Part shown: one piece after another, positions 9,565-44,023 of the stretch
Layout: each line of letters opens with the position of its first letter
How positions within the stretch are numbered: the stretch's first letter is position 1
DNA from: Escherichia coli
GTDB lineage: Bacteria; Pseudomonadota; Gammaproteobacteria; Enterobacterales; Enterobacteriaceae
NCBI RefSeq assembly: GCF_030384885.1
Contig: NZ_CP128613.1
Length of the DNA: 64,000 bases
Strand: one strand, 5' to 3'
Notes under the pieces: generated by a model
Databases searched by the model: none
What the model was told of the DNA's origin: nothing
What the model saw: the letters and a program-made list of their open reading frames with translations, nothing else
Translations under genes and position numbers: made by a program

Positions 9565-10347
9565 ATGCGCACAAGCGACGTTACGCAACTGACGGATCTG
9601 GCGCTGGGGCTGTGGTTTCCCTTCGTGCGCATTATGGCGTTTCTGCGCTATGTGCCGGTGCTGGATAACAGCGCCCTGACTATGCGCGTGCGGATTATTT
9701 TGTCGCTGGCGCTGGCAATCATCATCACGCCGTTGATCCCCCATCCCATTCCGCATGATTTGCTCTCGCTCAACAGTTTGATCCTGACGGTGGAGCAAAT
9801 CTTATGGGGCATGTTATTCGGGCTGATGTTTCAGTTTCTGTTTCTGGCGCTGCAACTCGCCGGGCAAATTCTCTCGTTCAATATGGGGATGAGCATGGCG
9901 GTGATGAACGACCCGAGCAGCGGCGCATCGACCACCGTGCTGGCGGAGCTTATCAACGTCTACGCGATCCTGCTGTTTTTTGCCATGGACGGGCATCTGT
10001 TGCTGGTGAGCGTGTTGTACAAGGGCTTCACCTACTGGCCGATTGGCAACGCGCTGCATCCGCAAACCCTGCGCACCATTGCGCTGGCCTTTAGCTGGGT
10101 GCTGGCGTCCGCATCGCTGCTTGCGCTGCCGACCACTTTTATCATGCTGATTGTGCAGGGCTGCTTTGGCCTGCTCAACCGCATTGCGCCGCCGCTGAAT
10201 CTCTTTTCACTTGGCTTTCCCATCAACATGCTGGCAGGGCTGGTCTGCTTTGCCACCCTGCTCTACAACCTGCCGGATCACTATCTGCATATGGCGAATT
10301 TTGTGTTGCAGCAGCTCGACGCGCTGAAAGGTCACTATGGCGGATAG
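9565..10347 (+). CDS. lfiR: flagellar export apparatus protein FliR-like
   Basis: ORF 9514..10347 trimmed to the ATG just after the fliQ stop (260 aa); polytopic membrane protein. Confidence 0.85.
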   Translation: MRTSDVTQLTDLALGLWFPFVRIMAFLRYVPVLDNSALTMRVRIILSLALAIIITPLIPHPIPHDLLSLNSLILTVEQILWGMLFGLMFQFLFLALQLAGQILSFNMGMSMAVMNDPSSGASTTVLAELINVYAILLFFAMDGHLLLVSVLYKGFTYWPIGNALHPQTLRTIALAFSWVLASASLLALPTTFIMLIVQGCFGLLNRIAPPLNLFSLGFPINMLAGLVCFATLLYNLPDHYLHMANFVLQQLDALKGHYGG

Positions 10348-11476
10348 CAGCAGCGAAGAAAAAACAGAGAAACCCTCGGCGCAAAAGCTGCGTAAAGCGC
10401 GTGAAGAGGGACAACTGCCGCGCTCAAAGGATATAGGGCTGGCGGCGAGCCTGTTTGCGGCGTTTGTGGTGATCTCCAGCAGCTTCCCGTGGTATGCCGA
10501 TTTTGTACGCGAGAGTTTTATCAGCGTGCATCAGTACGCGCAGGAGATTAATAACCCGGAGGTGATCGGCCAGTTTCTGCGCCATCACCTGTTAATTCTC
10601 GGCAAGTTTATTCTCACCTTGCTACCGATGCCCGCCGCCGCGCTGCTCTCTTCGCTGGTGCCCGGTGGCTGGCTGTTCTTGCCAAAAAAAATCCTCCCGG
10701 ATTTCAGCAAAATCAGTCCGTTAAAAGGGATTGGGCGGCTGTTCTCCAGTGAACATCTTGCGGAAACAGGCAAGATGACGGCGAAGTCGGTGGTGGTGCT
10801 GGTGATGCTGTGGATTAGCCTGCGCAATAACTTTGCCGCCTTCCTCGGCCTGCAAGCGCTGCCGTTCAAACTGGCGATGAATGAGGGTTTGTCGCTCTAC
10901 GCCAGCGTGATGCGCAACTTTGTCATCCTGTTTATTTTCTTCGCGCTTATCGACGTGCCGCTGGCGAAAGCCCTGTTCACCAAAGGGCTGAAGATGACTA
11001 AGCAGGAGCTGAAAGAAGAGTACAAAAATCAGGAAGGCAAGCCGGAAGTGAAGGCGCGCGTGCGGCGGCTGCAACGGCAACTGGCGATGGGGCAAATTCG
11101 CAAAGTGGTGCCGAAAGCCAACGTGGTGATCACCAACCCGACCCACTACGCCGTGGCGTTGCAGTATGACCAGTCACGCGCCGCCGCGCCGTTTGTGGTG
11201 GCAAAAGGTACCGATGAAATCGCCCTCTATATTCGTCAGGTCGCCACTGAAAATCAGGTGGAAGTGGTCGAGTTCCCGCGACTGGCGCGCTCGGTTTACT
11301 ACACCACCCAGGTGAATCAGCAAATTCCGTTTCAGCTTTACCGGGCCATCGCCCACGTTCTGACCTACGTCCTGCAAATGAAACACTGGCGCGACGGCGC
11401 ACAGCCGCGCCCGGCTCTGAACAGACATATTTCCATTCCCAAAGAGGTGCTTAAACTGGATGGCGAAAACAACTAA
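10337..11476 (+). CDS. lfhB: flagellar export apparatus protein FlhB-like
   Basis: 379 aa, contains the FlhB autocleavage motif NPTHY. Confidence 0.9.
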   Translation: MADSSSEEKTEKPSAQKLRKAREEGQLPRSKDIGLAASLFAAFVVISSSFPWYADFVRESFISVHQYAQEINNPEVIGQFLRHHLLILGKFILTLLPMPAAALLSSLVPGGWLFLPKKILPDFSKISPLKGIGRLFSSEHLAETGKMTAKSVVVLVMLWISLRNNFAAFLGLQALPFKLAMNEGLSLYASVMRNFVILFIFFALIDVPLAKALFTKGLKMTKQELKEEYKNQEGKPEVKARVRRLQRQLAMGQIRKVVPKANVVITNPTHYAVALQYDQSRAAAPFVVAKGTDEIALYIRQVATENQVEVVEFPRLARSVYYTTQVNQQIPFQLYRAIAHVLTYVLQMKHWRDGAQPRPALNRHISIPKEVLKLDGENN

Positions 11477-13553
11477 ATCGTTCCTCGCGCTACTGCGCGG
11501 CGGCAATCTCGGCGTGCCGCTGGTGATCTTGTGTATTCTGGCGATGGTTATTTTGCCGCTGCCGCCTGCGCTGCTGGATATTCTGTTCACCTTCAACATT
11601 GTGCTGGCGGTGATGGTGCTGCTGGTGGCGGTGTCGGCGAAACGTCCGCTGGAATTCAGCCTGTTCCCGACTATTTTGCTGATCACCACCTTAATGCGCC
11701 TGACGCTTAACGTTGCTTCTACGCGCGTGGTGCTGCTGCACGGGCATCTCGGCGCGGGCGCAGCGGGTAAGGTGATTGAGTCGTTTGGTCAGGTGGTGAT
11801 TGGCGGCAACTTTGTCGTCGGTTTCGTGGTGTTTATCATCCTGATGATCATCAACTTTATTGTCGTCACCAAAGGGGCCGAGCGTATTTCCGAGGTTTCT
11901 GCCCGCTTTACCCTAGACGCGATGCCCGGCAAGCAAATGGCGATTGACGCCGATCTTAACGCCGGGTTGATCAACCAGGCGCAGGCGCAGACCCGCCGCA
12001 AAGATGTTGCCAGCGAGGCCGATTTCTACGGCGCGATGGACGGGGCATCGAAGTTTGTGCGCGGGGATGCCATCGCCGGGATGATGATTCTGGCGATCAA
12101 CCTGATTGGCGGCGTTTGTATCGGGATCTTCAAATACAACCTGAGCGCCGATGCCGCCTTCCAGCAGTATGTGCTGATGACCATCGGTGACGGGCTGGTA
12201 GCGCAGATCCCGTCCCTGCTGCTCTCTACCGCGGCAGCGATTATCGTCACCCGCGTCAGCGACAACGGCGATATCGCCCATGACGTGCGCCATCAGTTGC
12301 TGGCAAGCCCGTCGGTGCTCTACACCGCCACCGGGATTATGTTCGTGCTGGCGGTGGTGCCGGGAATGCCGCACTTCCCGTTCCTGATGTTCAGCGCCTT
12401 GCTTGGCTTTACCGGCTGGCGAATGAGCAAACGCCCGCAGGCGGCGGAGGCGGAAGAGAAAAGCCTCGAAACGCTGACCCGCACAATCACTGAAACCAGC
12501 GAGCAACAGGTCAGTTGGGAAACCATTCCGCTGATCGAGCCCATCAGTTTAAGCCTCGGTTACAAGCTGGTGGCGCTGGTGGACAAAGCGCAGGGCAACC
12601 CGCTCACCCAGCGTATTCGCGGCGTGCGGCAGGTGATTTCCGACGGCAACGGCGTGCTGCTGCCGGAGATCCGTATTCGCGAAAACTTCCGCCTCAAGCC
12701 CAGCCAGTACGCCATTTTCATCAACGGCATTAAGGCTGATGAAGCTGATATTCCGGCGGATAAACTGATGGCGTTGCCCTCCAGCGAAACCTACGGCGAG
12801 ATAGACGGCGTGCTGGGGAACGACCCGGCGTACGGGATGCCGGTCACCTGGATTCAGCCCGCGCAGAAGGCGAAGGCGCTGAATATGGGGTATCAGGTGA
12901 TCGACAGCGCCAGCGTGATTGCTACCCATGTTAATAAGATTGTGCGCAGCTATATTCCTGATTTGTTTAACTATGACGACATCACGCAGTTGCATAACCG
13001 TTTGTCGTCAATGGCACCGCGCCTGGCAGAGGATTTGAGTGCGGCGCTGAATTACAGCCAGTTGCTGAAAGTGTACCGGGCACTACTGACCGAAGGCGTT
13101 TCCCTGCGCGATATCGTCACCATCGCCACCGTGCTGGTCGCCAGTAGCACCGTCACCAAAGATCATATTCTGCTGGCGGCCGATGTGCGCCTGGCACTGC
13201 GGCGCAGCATTACCCATCCGTTCGTTCGCAAGCAGGAGCTGACGGTGTATACGCTGAATAATGAGCTGGAAAACCTGCTGTCCAACGTGGTGAATCAGGC
13301 GCAACAGGCTGGCAAAGTGATGCTCGATAGCGTGCCGGTGGACCCGAATATGCTCAACCAGTTCCAGAACACGATGCCGCAGGTGAAAGAGCAGATGAAA
13401 GCGGCAGGGAAAGACCCGGTGCTGCTGGTGCCGCCGCAGTTGCGCCCTTTGCTGGCGCGTTATGCGAGGTTGTTTGCGCCGGGGTTGCATGTGCTGTCGT
13501 ATAACGAAGTGCCGGACGAGCTGGAGTTGAAGATTATGGGGGCGTTGAGTTGA
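11460..13553 (+). CDS. lfhA: flagellar export apparatus protein FlhA-like
   Basis: 697 aa, FlhA/InvA-family N-terminal membrane domain and cytoplasmic domain. Confidence 0.9.
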   Translation: MAKTTKSFLALLRGGNLGVPLVILCILAMVILPLPPALLDILFTFNIVLAVMVLLVAVSAKRPLEFSLFPTILLITTLMRLTLNVASTRVVLLHGHLGAGAAGKVIESFGQVVIGGNFVVGFVVFIILMIINFIVVTKGAERISEVSARFTLDAMPGKQMAIDADLNAGLINQAQAQTRRKDVASEADFYGAMDGASKFVRGDAIAGMMILAINLIGGVCIGIFKYNLSADAAFQQYVLMTIGDGLVAQIPSLLLSTAAAIIVTRVSDNGDIAHDVRHQLLASPSVLYTATGIMFVLAVVPGMPHFPFLMFSALLGFTGWRMSKRPQAAEAEEKSLETLTRTITETSEQQVSWETIPLIEPISLSLGYKLVALVDKAQGNPLTQRIRGVRQVISDGNGVLLPEIRIRENFRLKPSQYAIFINGIKADEADIPADKLMALPSSETYGEIDGVLGNDPAYGMPVTWIQPAQKAKALNMGYQVIDSASVIATHVNKIVRSYIPDLFNYDDITQLHNRLSSMAPRLAEDLSAALNYSQLLKVYRALLTEGVSLRDIVTIATVLVASSTVTKDHILLAADVRLALRRSITHPFVRKQELTVYTLNNELENLLSNVVNQAQQAGKVMLDSVPVDPNMLNQFQNTMPQVKEQMKAAGKDPVLLVPPQLRPLLARYARLFAPGLHVLSYNEVPDELELKIMGALS

Positions 13554-13636
13554 TTGAGGATTCTTTTCCATACTTTGCAGCACCTGACACCATTAATTGA
13601 CGTCACACTGCAAAGAGACTACGATGACACCATACA

Positions 13637-13936
13637 ATGACGTCATGGATTGATAGTATGATTAAGGTCAGCGCGCTAGGCTCTCGTCATAGAAAAACAT
13701 TCGACGATGTAATGACGGAGCCGCCAAAATCTGGAATTAAATGGGATGATGTTGTTGCTCTCATTAAAGCGGTGGGTGGCTCAATAAAAAATAACAACGG
13801 CTCCAGACGAAAATTTCAGATTGGAACGACCAAATTCAGCACACATGAGCCGCATCCAAAGAATGTGATGGATAAAGGCGCAGTAGCAGGTCTTAAGGAG
13901 TGGTTTGTTAACTGTGTAGGGGTAGATTATGAATAA
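13637..13936 (+). CDS. HicA-like toxin candidate (mRNA interferase fold) with N-terminal extension
   Basis: 99 aa; ALIKAVGGSIK..GSRRKF..THEPHPKNVMDKGAVAGLKEW resembles the HicA pattern; overlaps the downstream gene by 8 nt; true start may be an internal Met. Confidence 0.45.
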   Translation: MTSWIDSMIKVSALGSRHRKTFDDVMTEPPKSGIKWDDVVALIKAVGGSIKNNNGSRRKFQIGTTKFSTHEPHPKNVMDKGAVAGLKEWFVNCVGVDYE

Positions 13937-14285
13937 AGCATCGAACATTATCACAATTAAAGGTCAACCAGCCGCAGTGACATTTGAAGCCGATATCAAC
14001 GCATTTCGCGGCAAGTTCCTCAATGTAAACGGTTATTGTGACTTTGTAGCCACAAGTATTGAGGCATTATATCGTGAAGGCGAAAGCGCTCTGGATGAGT
14101 GGATGGCGGATTGTGAAGAGGACGGTATTGCCCCTTTTCGTGAAGAAGAAGAGCAAAAACGCCTGACGCTTCGTGTGCCGCATCACATCGATTCGCGGCT
14201 GACCATCGTCGCCAGACAACATTCCATTTCAAAAAACCAGCTCATTATTGATGTCTTAGAACGTGAGTTTTCAGCCCAGATGTAA
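13929..14285 (+). CDS. HicB-like antitoxin candidate with C-terminal ribbon-helix-helix DNA-binding domain
   Basis: 118 aa; C-terminus KRLTLRVPHHIDSRLTIVARQHSISKNQLIIDVLEREF is RHH/CopG-like; coupled to the upstream small gene. Confidence 0.45.
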   Translation: MNKASNIITIKGQPAAVTFEADINAFRGKFLNVNGYCDFVATSIEALYREGESALDEWMADCEEDGIAPFREEEEQKRLTLRVPHHIDSRLTIVARQHSISKNQLIIDVLEREFSAQM

Positions 14286-14317
14286 ACAGGTCGGATGCCG
14301 CGTGGCATCCGACCTGT
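14286..14317. terminator. perfect 14-bp stem hairpin between convergent genes (bidirectional terminator candidate)
   Basis: ACAGGTCGGATGCC-GCGT-GGCATCCGACCTGT read directly. Confidence 0.4.
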
Positions 14318-14341
14318 TGCCAGTTCGTCAATATTACCCAT

Positions 14342-15100
14342 TTACAAAATCGTCTCTTCCGTCAAAATCCGCCGCGCGCCTAAAAAATGATCATGCCAGA
14401 AAGGTTCAGCTAACCGACTTACCCGAATGGTTTCCCCGGTGCGCGGCGACTCGATAAACTGACCGTCTCCCAGATACACGCCCATATGGTCGGCAATCTC
14501 GCGGCTGTGAATATGGAAAAACAGCAAATCTCCCCGGCGCAGGTCGTTATTTGCCACAATGGTTGCCCGACGGTAGTGATACATCTCATTGGCCGTGCGC
14601 GGGAGTTTCGCCTCGAGGATCTTGTTGTAGGCATAAAAAACCAACCCGCTACAGTCGAAGCCTTGATCGGGTCGCGTGCCGCCCCAGACGTATGGCTTGC
14701 CAAGCTGCTGCTCCAGACGGTGAATCGCCACTTCGGTGATATTATGCAGGTGGTTACTGCTGAGGAAATGATTGTTTTCCGCCAGCGCCTGCCAGCGTCT
14801 GTCACTCGCCTTGAGCGGCGCAGGAAACCATTCTGGATGCTGTTTTATCTGTTCGCGGTTGTGTTGCCGCAGTGCCCTTCTGCTTTCGGCATTGCCTTCC
14901 ACAATATAGCTGGCCTGCTTTTTCAGATGAATTTGGTACTGTTTTAATAAACGCGCACGGTTTTGCATCCGCTGGCGGGCGGCGTAGCTGAAAGAGATAT
15001 GTGATGTGGTGGCGCTGGCGAGTAAAGGGAGCAAAACGCATAACGAAAACACGCCTGGATGCAGAAATCTGCCGAGCAAGAACGAAGACATGAAGGACAT
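14342..15100 (-). CDS. yafL: NlpC/P60-family peptidoglycan endopeptidase
   Basis: 252 aa; NlpC/P60 catalytic region GFDCSGLV; synteny with yafK. Confidence 0.8.
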   Translation of the reverse strand: MSFMSSFLLGRFLHPGVFSLCVLLPLLASATTSHISFSYAARQRMQNRARLLKQYQIHLKKQASYIVEGNAESRRALRQHNREQIKQHPEWFPAPLKASDRRWQALAENNHFLSSNHLHNITEVAIHRLEQQLGKPYVWGGTRPDQGFDCSGLVFYAYNKILEAKLPRTANEMYHYRRATIVANNDLRRGDLLFFHIHSREIADHMGVYLGDGQFIESPRTGETIRVSRLAEPFWHDHFLGARRILTEETIL

Positions 15101-15391
15101 AAACCGGCTGAATGAAGGTGAGAATTTTAAAAGACCGGAGGAGTAAACGGGATTATTAATTGCTTATTTGCATATTACTATTGAGGTTTCATAATCTTAG
15201 GAAATAAATGATACATGCGCTTTTCGGACTAATGAAAACTGCCCTTGTGCTAAATTTGTAAACCCTGCGCCGACAGGCTTGCGTAAAACTCTTTTGGTGA
15301 TAATGTGAGCCTTCCAAATCCAGACTATTCCGATTTGGGATCCATTTTGCCGTCCTGGCGTGTGTAACCGTTTTATCAAGGAATAAGCAGT

Positions 15392-42481: not shown

Positions 42482-44023
<1,542 letters not shown>

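What the first reader, a model, noticed from the sequence alone, without database searches (positions are those of the whole stretch)
13560..14317. HicAB-like toxin-antitoxin pair with twin TGACGTCA palindromes wedged between the flhA homologue and yafL
Two overlapping small genes (8-nt overlap) encode a HicA-like protein and a protein with a C-terminal ribbon-helix-helix domain. The HicA-like protein has an N-terminal extension and GSRRKF where HicA usually has a His-containing motif, so its catalytic identity is uncertain. The promoter region carries two copies of the palindrome TGACGTCA (about 13597 and 13637, the second overlapping the start codon), a plausible autoregulatory operator. As I recall, K-12 has a REP-associated transposase gene (rayT) at this position instead.
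Basis: partly seen in the sequence, partly recalled or inferred. Interest (0 to 1): 0.5.

Follow-up and report, generated by a model that had tools for sequence, protein, structure and literature searches.

The report
Annotated HicAB toxin-antitoxin cassette, His-less toxin
This is a real but already catalogued two-gene HicA/HicB toxin-antitoxin cassette that replaces the rayT element in about a quarter of E. coli strains. Its toxin belongs to a large untested branch of the family that lacks the usual catalytic histidine, and its promoter carries four conserved repressor sites, not two.

Summary
Window 13549-14342 is a 794-bp cassette between the convergent genes lfhA and yafL. It holds hicA (13658-13936, 92 aa) and hicB (13929-14285, 118 aa), which overlap by 8 nt.

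Pfam, structure models and fold searches place both proteins in the HicA and HicB families. [quoted passage not shown]

It is not new. RefSeq annotates it in 1,369 of 5,426 complete E. coli genomes. Ton-Hoang et al. 2012 described it as replacing the rayT REPtron. Gerdes 2024 lists a near-identical pair as a Class 4 hicAB.

Corrections and additions:
- The true start codon is 13658, not 13637, so the second palindrome lies in the 5' UTR.
- The operator has four sites (13585, 13598, 13625, 13638) at fixed positions around a TTGACG-17-TACGAT promoter. The layout is conserved across genera.
- Arg50 sits where tested HicAs have their catalytic His. This is typical of a large clade (761 clusters) that instead keeps an HxPHP motif and a basic N-terminal helix.
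- hicA is often lost while hicB stays, and never the reverse, which argues that HicA is toxic.

No member of this clade was found to have been tested. Interest is low to moderate.

The parts
13549..14342 (+). hicAB cassette. This is the stretch with no homology to K-12. It sits between the lfhA stop and the yafL stop, in place of the K-12 rayT REPtron.
   Evidence: blastn against K-12 loses homology after 13548 and regains it at 14343. K-12 map. Published replacement (PMC3333891).
13585..13592 (.). Operator site 1, degenerate (TGACACCA), at -73 from the hicA ATG.
   Evidence: This position holds TGAYRTCA-like sites in 13 loci of other genera. It is part of a 21-nt direct repeat.
13597..13625 (+). 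Sigma-70-type promoter TTGACG-17 nt-TACGAT. The inferred transcription start is near 13632.
   Evidence: Consensus scan, 9 of 12 matches. TTGAC(G/A) and a -10-like hexamer occur at the same offsets in related loci.
13598..13605 (.). Operator site 2, perfect palindrome TGACGTCA. It overlaps the -35 hexamer, at -60 from the ATG.
13625..13632 (.). Operator site 3, degenerate (TGACACCA). It abuts the -10 hexamer and covers the inferred transcription start, at -33 from the ATG.
   Evidence: This site is a perfect TGACGTCA in L007, L018 and Salmonella plasmid pHL21C.
13638..13645 (.). Operator site 4, perfect palindrome TGACGTCA, in the 5' UTR at -20 from the ATG.
   Evidence: Retained in the hicB-only allele.
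13647..13649 (+). GGA core of the Shine-Dalgarno sequence for hicA.
   Evidence: A GGA lies 9-13 nt upstream of the ATG in 13 of 14 loci.
13658..13936 (+). hicA, 92 aa. It has an N-terminal helix (residues 9-19) followed by an alpha-beta-beta-beta-alpha HicA domain. Key residues are G48-S49-R50 (R50 codon 13805-13807), H63 (13844-13846) and H66 (13853-13855).
   Evidence: PGAP start. Pfam. AlphaFold model, pLDDT 92.9. Top fold match is B. pseudomallei HicA. Residue conservation.
13929..14285 (+). hicB, 118 aa. [quoted passage not shown] The DNA-reading strand is about residues 78-84, with T80 and R82 invariant.
   Evidence: Pfam PF05534. Profile alignment to AmrZ and Arc. Model. Top fold matches are B. 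pseudomallei HicB and Y. pestis HicB3. Alignment A4.
14285..14318 (.). Perfect 15-bp-stem hairpin with a 4-nt loop, between the convergent hicB and yafL. It has no T tract. It may act as a transcript end or stabiliser (inferred).
   Evidence: the repeat finder. No canonical terminator was found by the scan.

Best explanation
This is a chromosomal type II toxin-antitoxin cassette of the hicAB kind (Gerdes Class 4: toxin gene first, HicB with a C-terminal RHH domain).

Transcription starts from one sigma-70 promoter (TTGACG-17-TACGAT, 13597-13625). hicA and hicB are translated from one mRNA, and the 8-nt overlap couples hicB translation to hicA.

HicB is inferred to neutralise HicA through its N-terminal HicB-type domain. 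It is also inferred to repress the promoter through RHH dimers bound to four 8-bp sites of consensus TGAYRTCA. These sites lie at -73, -60, -33 and -20 from the ATG and cover the -35 hexamer, the -10/+1 region and the leader.

HicA is inferred to be growth-inhibitory, most likely as an RNase. It cannot use the canonical His at the start of strand beta2, because that residue is Arg50. The near-invariant His63 and His66 (HxPHP motif) and a conserved basic N-terminal helix are the likely substitutes. His63 sits across the beta2-beta3 hairpin from residue 50.

Shown here: gene structure, family and fold assignment, operator conservation, population distribution, and the asymmetric decay of the two genes.

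Inferred: toxicity, RNase chemistry, HicB-operator binding, and biological role (stabilisation of the segment or phage defence).
For: Family and fold:
- Pfam HicA_toxin and HicB hits, and 72 of 74 clade members match HicA_toxin.
- The models are confident (pLDDT 92.9 and 81.5). Their best PDB matches are B. pseudomallei HicA (6g26_E, probability 0.91), then 1whz and 6hpb_A for HicA. For HicB they are 6g26_A (probability 1.00) and 4p78_A (0.99).
- The RHH domain aligns to AmrZ and Arc.

Operon layout:
- The 8-nt overlap is kept in all 12 intact related loci.

Operator:
- Sites at -73, -60, -33 and -20 recur in 13 loci from Photorhabdus, Klebsiella, Morganella, Providencia, Proteus, Pantoea and others, at 57-66% HicA identity.
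- Site density there is 55 times that of the rest of the loci.
- A conjugative Salmonella IncFII plasmid has four perfect sites at -75, -62, -33 and -20.
- The RHH strand residues T80 and R82 are invariant.

Toxicity, indirect evidence:
- In E. coli, hicB DNA is in 1,479 genomes and hicA DNA in 1,370. All genomes with any match have hicB, so 109 have hicB only and none has hicA only.
- In other genera hicA is broken while hicB is intact in L009, L020, L021, L022 and L024. The reverse was never seen.

Clade features:
- At the catalytic-His column, R occurs in 123 of 149 representatives. H63 occurs in 141 and H66 in 142.
- Members with A, M, G or P at position 50 still keep H63 and H66.

Mobile contexts: plasmids and Ralstonia and Burkholderia phages.
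Against: No experiment on this pair or on any member of its clade was found.

Every HicA whose key residues were probed needs the His that is absent here (PMC11594946; PMC12297915).

In gonococcal HicA, mutating the His that aligns by motif with His66 (H40A) did not affect toxicity.

Fold-search E-values are weak (0.16 and 0.015) because the proteins are small.

Two of the four operator sites in this window are degenerate, matching 6 of 8 positions.

Most of the 109 hicB-only E. coli genomes probably descend from one deletion (108 sit in the 90-95% identity band), so they count as few independent events.
Confidence: 0.62

Rival explanations
1. The toxin is catalytically dead. Loss of the catalytic His left a harmless HicA-like protein, and the pair persists as a HicB-centred regulator or as an anti-addiction remnant.
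For: Arg50 occupies the column of the His that is essential in every tested HicA. hicA is dispensable, because 109 E. coli genomes and several other species carry hicB without an intact hicA.
Against: The His-less state is not decay. It is shared by a clade of 761 clusters at 50% identity with strongly conserved clade-specific residues: P22 in 145 of 149, W29 in 134, S49 in 144, H63 in 141, H66 in 142. HicA is intact and 57-66% conserved across genera, with the overlap to hicB kept. Loss is one-directional, with hicA lost and hicB never lost alone. That pattern is expected only if HicA harms cells lacking HicB.
Confidence: 0.13
2. HicA is toxic without cutting RNA. Its dsRBD-like fold and basic N-terminal helix bind RNA or the ribosome and block translation stoichiometrically.
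For: The fold is a dsRBD-like RNA-binding fold. The canonical catalytic His is missing. There is a conserved basic motif (K/R)-H-(R/K)-(K/R)-T in the extra helix.
Against: Two near-invariant histidines (H63, H66) next to position 50 are more typical of an acid-base catalytic pair than of a binding surface. No HicA is known to act this way.
Confidence: 0.15
3. The TGACGTCA repeats are not HicB operators. They are chance matches, sites for a host regulator, or remnants of the element that delivered the cassette.
For: No binding data exist. The literature search for this motif with antitoxins found nothing relevant. Two of the four sites here are imperfect.
Against: The sites travel with hicAB into unrelated genomic and plasmid contexts. 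They keep fixed offsets to the -35 and -10 hexamers and the ATG. Chance predicts 0.78 copies per 64 kb. The hicB-only allele keeps the -10 hexamer and site 4.
Confidence: 0.05

Closest known systems
Class 4 hicAB operons (Gerdes 2024, mBio, PMC10865869): hicA upstream, HicB with a C-terminal RHH domain. Structural examples are Burkholderia pseudomallei HicAB (6G26) and Yersinia pestis HicA3B3 (4P78).
   Same: Gene order, overlapping genes, HicA dsRBD-like fold, HicB N-terminal partial RNase H fold plus RHH domain, and palindromic sites in the promoter. Gerdes's Table S1 lists a near-identical E. coli pair, UIV62394.1 and UIV62393.1, as Class 4.
   Different: The toxin is 92 aa with an extra N-terminal helix. 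It has Arg where those toxins have the catalytic His (B. pseudomallei H24, Y. pestis H28). It has His63 where they have Thr. The operator has four 8-bp sites. Y. pestis has two 15-bp repeats and B. pseudomallei has a single palindromic region.
E. coli K-12 HicAB (6HPB), Gerdes Class 3
   Same: Same toxin fold family and toxin-first operon.
   Different: K-12 HicB uses a helix-turn-helix domain, not RHH. K-12 HicA is 58 aa with catalytic His23. It lies at a different chromosomal locus and has a two-promoter regulation scheme.
hicA-hicB allele between yafL and fhiA (lfhA) in phylogroup B1 E. coli (Ton-Hoang et al. 2012, NAR, PMC3333891)
   Same: This is the same locus. It was reported in 24 of 110 genomes, for example IAI1, as replacing tnpA-REP (rayT) and its BIMEs. 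The present counts are 1,369 of 5,426 genomes with hicAB and 3,564 with rayT.
   Different: That paper records only the presence of the genes. It does not treat the toxin's residues, the operator or the hicB-only allele.
Arc/MetJ-superfamily RHH repressors (Arc, AmrZ)
   Same: The HicB C-terminal domain aligns to them over the strand and both helices. These repressors use the paired N-terminal strands of a dimer to read short palindromic or tandem sites (established knowledge).
   Different: Here the RHH domain is fused to a toxin-neutralising domain.

Membership tests
HicA toxin family (Pfam PF07927) | Significant match to the family profile | tested here: met
   E=1.7e-6 (99-aa ORF) and 1.4e-6 (92-aa protein), covering residues 29-77 and model positions 1-50 of 58. 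72 of 74 clade members match at E<=0.001. There was no NCBIfam hit.
HicA toxin family (Pfam PF07927) | dsRBD-like alpha-beta-beta-beta-alpha fold | tested here: met
   AlphaFold model pLDDT 92.9, with H29-38, E42-46, E50-55, E58-63 and H73-87. The top Foldseek PDB hit is 6g26_E HicA (probability 0.91, TM 0.62 on the target). 1whz and 6hpb_A also appear in the list. E-values are weak.
HicA toxin family (His-dependent RNases as characterised) | Catalytic His at the start of beta2 (the G-S-H motif) | tested here: not met
   The profile alignment puts R50 on B. pseudomallei H24 (Ala in the crystallised mutant) and on Y. pestis H28 in GSH. R occupies this column in 123 of 149 clade representatives. 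The requirement for this His comes from the literature.
HicA toxin family | Conserved Gly two residues before the catalytic position (B. pseudomallei Gly22) | tested here: met
   G48 is invariant in the subfamily and present in 143 of 149 representatives.
HicA toxin family | Toxicity and RNase activity, neutralised by HicB | not testable with these tools
   Only indirect evidence is available: hicA is lost or broken while hicB stays intact, never the reverse.
HicB antitoxin family | N-terminal partial RNase H fold (beta-beta-beta-alpha) | tested here: met
   The model has E7-10, E13-20, E25-30, E38-41 and H44-65, with pLDDT about 90 over residues 11-70. Foldseek top hits are 6g26_A (probability 1.00), 4p78_A (0.99), 4p7d_A, 2dsy_D and 6g1c_B. 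No Pfam hit covers this half of the protein.
HicB antitoxin family | [quoted passage not shown] | tested here: met
   Pfam PF05534 at E=4.1e-10 over residues 60-110. The family profile aligns to AmrZ (E=0.01) and Arc (E=0.04) over the strand and both helices.
Type II TA operon with autoregulation | Adjacent co-oriented genes with operators in the promoter | tested here: met
   An 8-nt overlap conserved in all 12 intact related loci. Four conserved sites overlap the predicted promoter. Actual binding and repression were not testable.
Gerdes Class 4 hicAB | hicA upstream of a hicB that carries an RHH domain | tested here: met
   The architecture is as described above. A near-identical pair is listed as Class 4 in Table S1 of PMC10865869.

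The most novel reading that the evidence does not exclude
The long HicA clade defined by GSR, HxPHP and a basic N-terminal helix is a mechanistically distinct toxin subclass. It spans at least 761 clusters at 50% identity and occurs on chromosomes, plasmids and phages. The claim is that its active centre has moved from the beta2 His to His63 and His66 on and after beta3, helped by the extra helix, or that it acts without catalysis. A further claim is that its HicB partners in Enterobacterales repress through a four-site TGACGTCA operator bound by higher-order HicB assemblies. Neither claim appears to have been tested.
Probability: 0.35. Interest if true: 0.5.

Novelty: already known. Interest (0 to 1): 0.28.

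Why it matters
The cassette itself is ordinary. It is named in RefSeq, catalogued as a Class 4 hicAB, and published as the allele that replaces the rayT REPtron.

Its modest value lies elsewhere. It gives an easy E. coli entry point to a large, apparently untested branch of HicA toxins that lack the histidine on which every characterised HicA depends. Testing it would show whether HicA chemistry is more plastic than assumed.

The four-site operator, conserved across genera, is a clean system for studying how RHH-type HicB assemblies read DNA.

The yafK-dinB region also emerges as a hotspot where toxin-antitoxin modules (dinJ-yafQ, yafNO, hicAB) come and go between strains.

Tried and rejected
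Searches that found nothing:
- NCBIfam and PADLOC gave no meaningful hit for either protein.
- Sequence searches of PDB chains with either single protein, or with the narrow HicA profile A1, found no HicA or HicB. Only the broad 74-sequence HicA profile reached the solved HicAs. The narrow HicB profile A4 reached only the RHH repressors AmrZ and Arc.
- Literature searches for the RefSeq protein accessions, and for TGACGTCA together with antitoxin, found nothing relevant.

Ideas rejected:
- The 13637 ATG as the start codon was rejected. Homologues are 92 aa, many have an in-frame stop just upstream, and a GGA is conserved before 13658. That ATG is simply part of operator site 4.
- The 8-bp inverted repeat CTTTGCAG/CTGCAAAG (13573-13580 and 13608-13615) flanking site 2 is present only in the E. 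coli allele, not in other genera. I treat it as unproven.
- The third TGACGTCA at 42828 is inside 16S rRNA and is unrelated.

Unresolved:
- Model coordinates are not exposed, so I could not measure residue distances. The adjacency of R50 and H63 is deduced from the hairpin register.

Full report
**What is there**

The window is E. coli DNA. An flhB/flhA-like pair of the lateral (Flag-2) flagellar system ends at 13553. yafL runs on the minus strand at 14342-15100, followed by dpaA, yafJ and gmhA.

Two plus-strand ORFs lie between lfhA and yafL. The second is 13929-14285 (118 aa). The first ends at 13936, so they overlap by 8 nt, ATGAATAA.

blastn against K-12 loses homology after 13548 and regains it at 14343. 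The strain-specific cassette is therefore 13549-14342 and fills the gap between two convergent stop codons. In K-12 the same gap holds rayT and its REP/BIME repeats, and dinJ-yafQ lies between yafL and dpaA. The window has neither.

**Start codon**

Three lines of evidence point to 13658 instead:
- PGAP starts the gene at 13658, giving 92 aa, and nearly all homologues are 92 aa.
- In 8 of 14 related loci an in-frame stop lies 6 nt before the conserved ATGAT(T/A/C)AA start.
- A GGA lies 9-13 nt upstream in 13 of 14 loci.

The 13637 ATG is part of the second palindrome. That palindrome therefore lies in the leader, not on the start codon.

**Family assignment**

- HicA matches Pfam HicA_toxin over residues 29-77 (E about 1e-6).
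- Its AlphaFold model is confident (pLDDT 92.9). It shows an extra N-terminal helix (residues 9-19) followed by alpha-beta-beta-beta-alpha.
- The best PDB fold match is B. pseudomallei HicA. T. thermophilus TTHA1913 and E. coli HicA also appear in the list. E-values are weak, as expected for about 60 aligned residues.
- HicB matches Pfam HicB over residues 60-110. That region aligns to the RHH repressors AmrZ and Arc.
- The HicB model has an N-terminal beta-beta-beta-beta-alpha domain. Its best fold matches are B. pseudomallei HicB and Y. pestis HicB3.
- NCBIfam, PADLOC and single-sequence PDB searches were silent.

**Already known**

- RefSeq annotates the pair as HicA-family toxin and HicB-family antitoxin in 1,369 of 5,426 complete E. 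coli genomes.
- Ton-Hoang et al. 2012 reported that 24 of 110 E. coli/Shigella genomes, mostly phylogroup B1, have hicA-hicB between yafL and fhiA in place of tnpA-REP and its BIMEs (PMC3333891).
- Gerdes 2024 lists a near-identical pair (UIV62394.1 and UIV62393.1) as a Class 4 hicAB with an RHH domain.
- Here, rayT covers at least 80% of the query in 3,564 genomes. This fits two main alternative alleles plus a minority with neither.

**The toxin's catalytic residue**

A 74-sequence profile of the clade aligns to solved HicAs. Arg50 falls on the catalytic His: B. pseudomallei H24, which is Ala in the crystallised mutant, and Y. pestis H28 in GSH. His63 falls on a Thr, and His66 on the His of B. 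pseudomallei PHP. All tested HicAs need that His.

The substitution is not local decay. An exhaustive profile search found 761 clusters at 50% identity with E<=0.001. Among the best 149:
- The column holds R in 123 and H in 3.
- G48 is present in 143, S49 in 144, H63 in 141, P65 in 141, H66 in 142, P22 in 145 and W29 in 134.
- The extra helix carries a basic (K/R)-H-(R/K)-(K/R)-T motif.

Members with A, M, G or P at position 50 still keep H63 and H66. A few have His one residue later, as in K-12 GSNH. Two of the three with His at position 50 lack His63.

From the hairpin register of strands 50-55 and 58-63, residue 63 pairs across from residue 50. The most economical reading is an RNase whose acid-base residues moved to the HxPHP motif.

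One caveat applies. In gonococcal HicA, the His that appears by motif position to be equivalent to His66 was dispensable.

**Indirect evidence for toxicity**

- In E. coli, hicB DNA is in 1,479 genomes and hicA DNA in 1,370. Every genome with any match has hicB.
- The 109 hicB-only genomes carry a diverged allele, 92-94% identical. In it hicA and sites 1-2 are deleted, but the -10 hexamer, site 4 and the ribosome-binding region are fused to hicB. This is probably one old event.
- In species representatives of other genera, hicA is broken while hicB is intact in five loci: a nonsense mutation in L009, frameshifts in L021 and L022, and 5' loss in L020 and L024. Both genes are damaged in L023. 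No locus has intact hicA with broken hicB.

**The operator**

The two perfect palindromes are at 13598-13605 and 13638-13645. Chance predicts 0.78 copies per window. Each is preceded, 13 bp upstream, by TGACACCA. Together these form a 21-nt direct repeat with 40-nt spacing.

In 13 loci from Photorhabdus, Klebsiella, Morganella, Providencia, Proteus, Pantoea and others (57-66% HicA identity, different flanks), TGAYRTCA-like sites recur at about -73, -60, -33 and -20 from the ATG. Sites with at most one mismatch are 55 times denser there than in the rest of the loci.

A conjugative IncFII Salmonella plasmid carries the pair beside partition and colicin genes, with four perfect sites at -75, -62, -33 and -20.

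In the window, site 2 overlaps the -35 hexamer of TTGACG-17-TACGAT (13597-13625). Site 3 abuts the -10 hexamer and the inferred start, and site 4 is in the leader. The RHH strand residues T80 and R82 are invariant.

Solved RHH-type HicBs are tetramers that present two RHH dimers. Two tetramers on four sites is a reasonable but untested model.

**Wider context**

The clade occurs on plasmids of Piscirickettsia, Deinococcus and rhizobia, and in Ralstonia and Burkholderia phages. In phage Dina a GSR/HRPHP toxin overlaps a HicB-like gene between tail genes. It is preceded by a different palindrome, TGATACT-N7-AGTATCA.

**Verdict**

The object is an already annotated and published hicAB cassette.

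This analysis adds:
- the corrected start codon;
- the four-site operator;
- the recognition that the missing His marks a large untested HicA clade;
- the one-directional decay pattern of the two genes.

No experiment on this clade was found in the searchable literature.

Noticed in passing
window 15028-15251: The yafL-dpaA intergenic region and the first ~70 nt of yafL have no homology to K-12, where about 830 bp including dinJ-yafQ sit at this place. This strain therefore lacks dinJ-yafQ as well as rayT. tblastn with the K-12 proteins found only yafL in the window.
   Followed up: partly
window 10337-13553: The flhB-like (379 aa) and flhA-like lfhA (697 aa) genes are full length here. In K-12, and in the strain with the identical hicAB cassette (2013C-4282), lfhA is a 5'-truncated pseudogene fused next to lafU. 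The hicAB allele therefore occurs with both intact and deleted Flag-2 clusters.
   Followed up: partly
L002 2916-3347 and L003 (E. coli AR_0372, GMF054): This is a hicB-only allele found in 109 complete genomes. hicA and operator sites 1-2 are gone. The hicA ribosome-binding site and first codons are joined to hicB, giving a new N-terminus MMKTRLLISQASN. The lfhA stop region supplies a new -35-like TTGATG 17 nt before the retained TACGAT.
   Followed up: partly
window 14285-14318: A perfect 15-bp-stem, 4-nt-loop hairpin (AACAGGTCGGATGCC/GGCATCCGACCTGTT) starts on the last base of the hicB stop codon. It has no T run. Its role (transcript end, stabiliser or REP-like remnant) was not examined.
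   Followed up: no
window 13573-13580 and 13608-13615: An 8-bp inverted repeat CTTTGCAG/CTGCAAAG brackets operator sites 1-2. It is seen in the E. coli allele but not in the other genera.
   Followed up: partly
window about 42800-42870: The only other TGACGTCA in the window lies in sequence typical of 16S rRNA (GGAGGAAGGTGGGGATGACGTCAAGTCATCATGGCCC on the minus strand). An rRNA operon is therefore present in the window.
   Followed up: no
L027 1462-1500 (Ralstonia phage Dina): A distant member of the same His-less HicA clade sits with a HicB-like gene between phage tail genes. It is preceded by a different palindrome (TGATACT-N7-AGTATCA) whose half-sites resemble the TGAT/ATCA variants of the enterobacterial operator.
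   Followed up: partly
L028 1767-2337 (Deinococcus radiodurans plasmid pMP1): A clade member annotated as a HicA toxin is followed by a 570-bp stretch with no annotated gene. An unannotated antitoxin may lie there.
   Followed up: no
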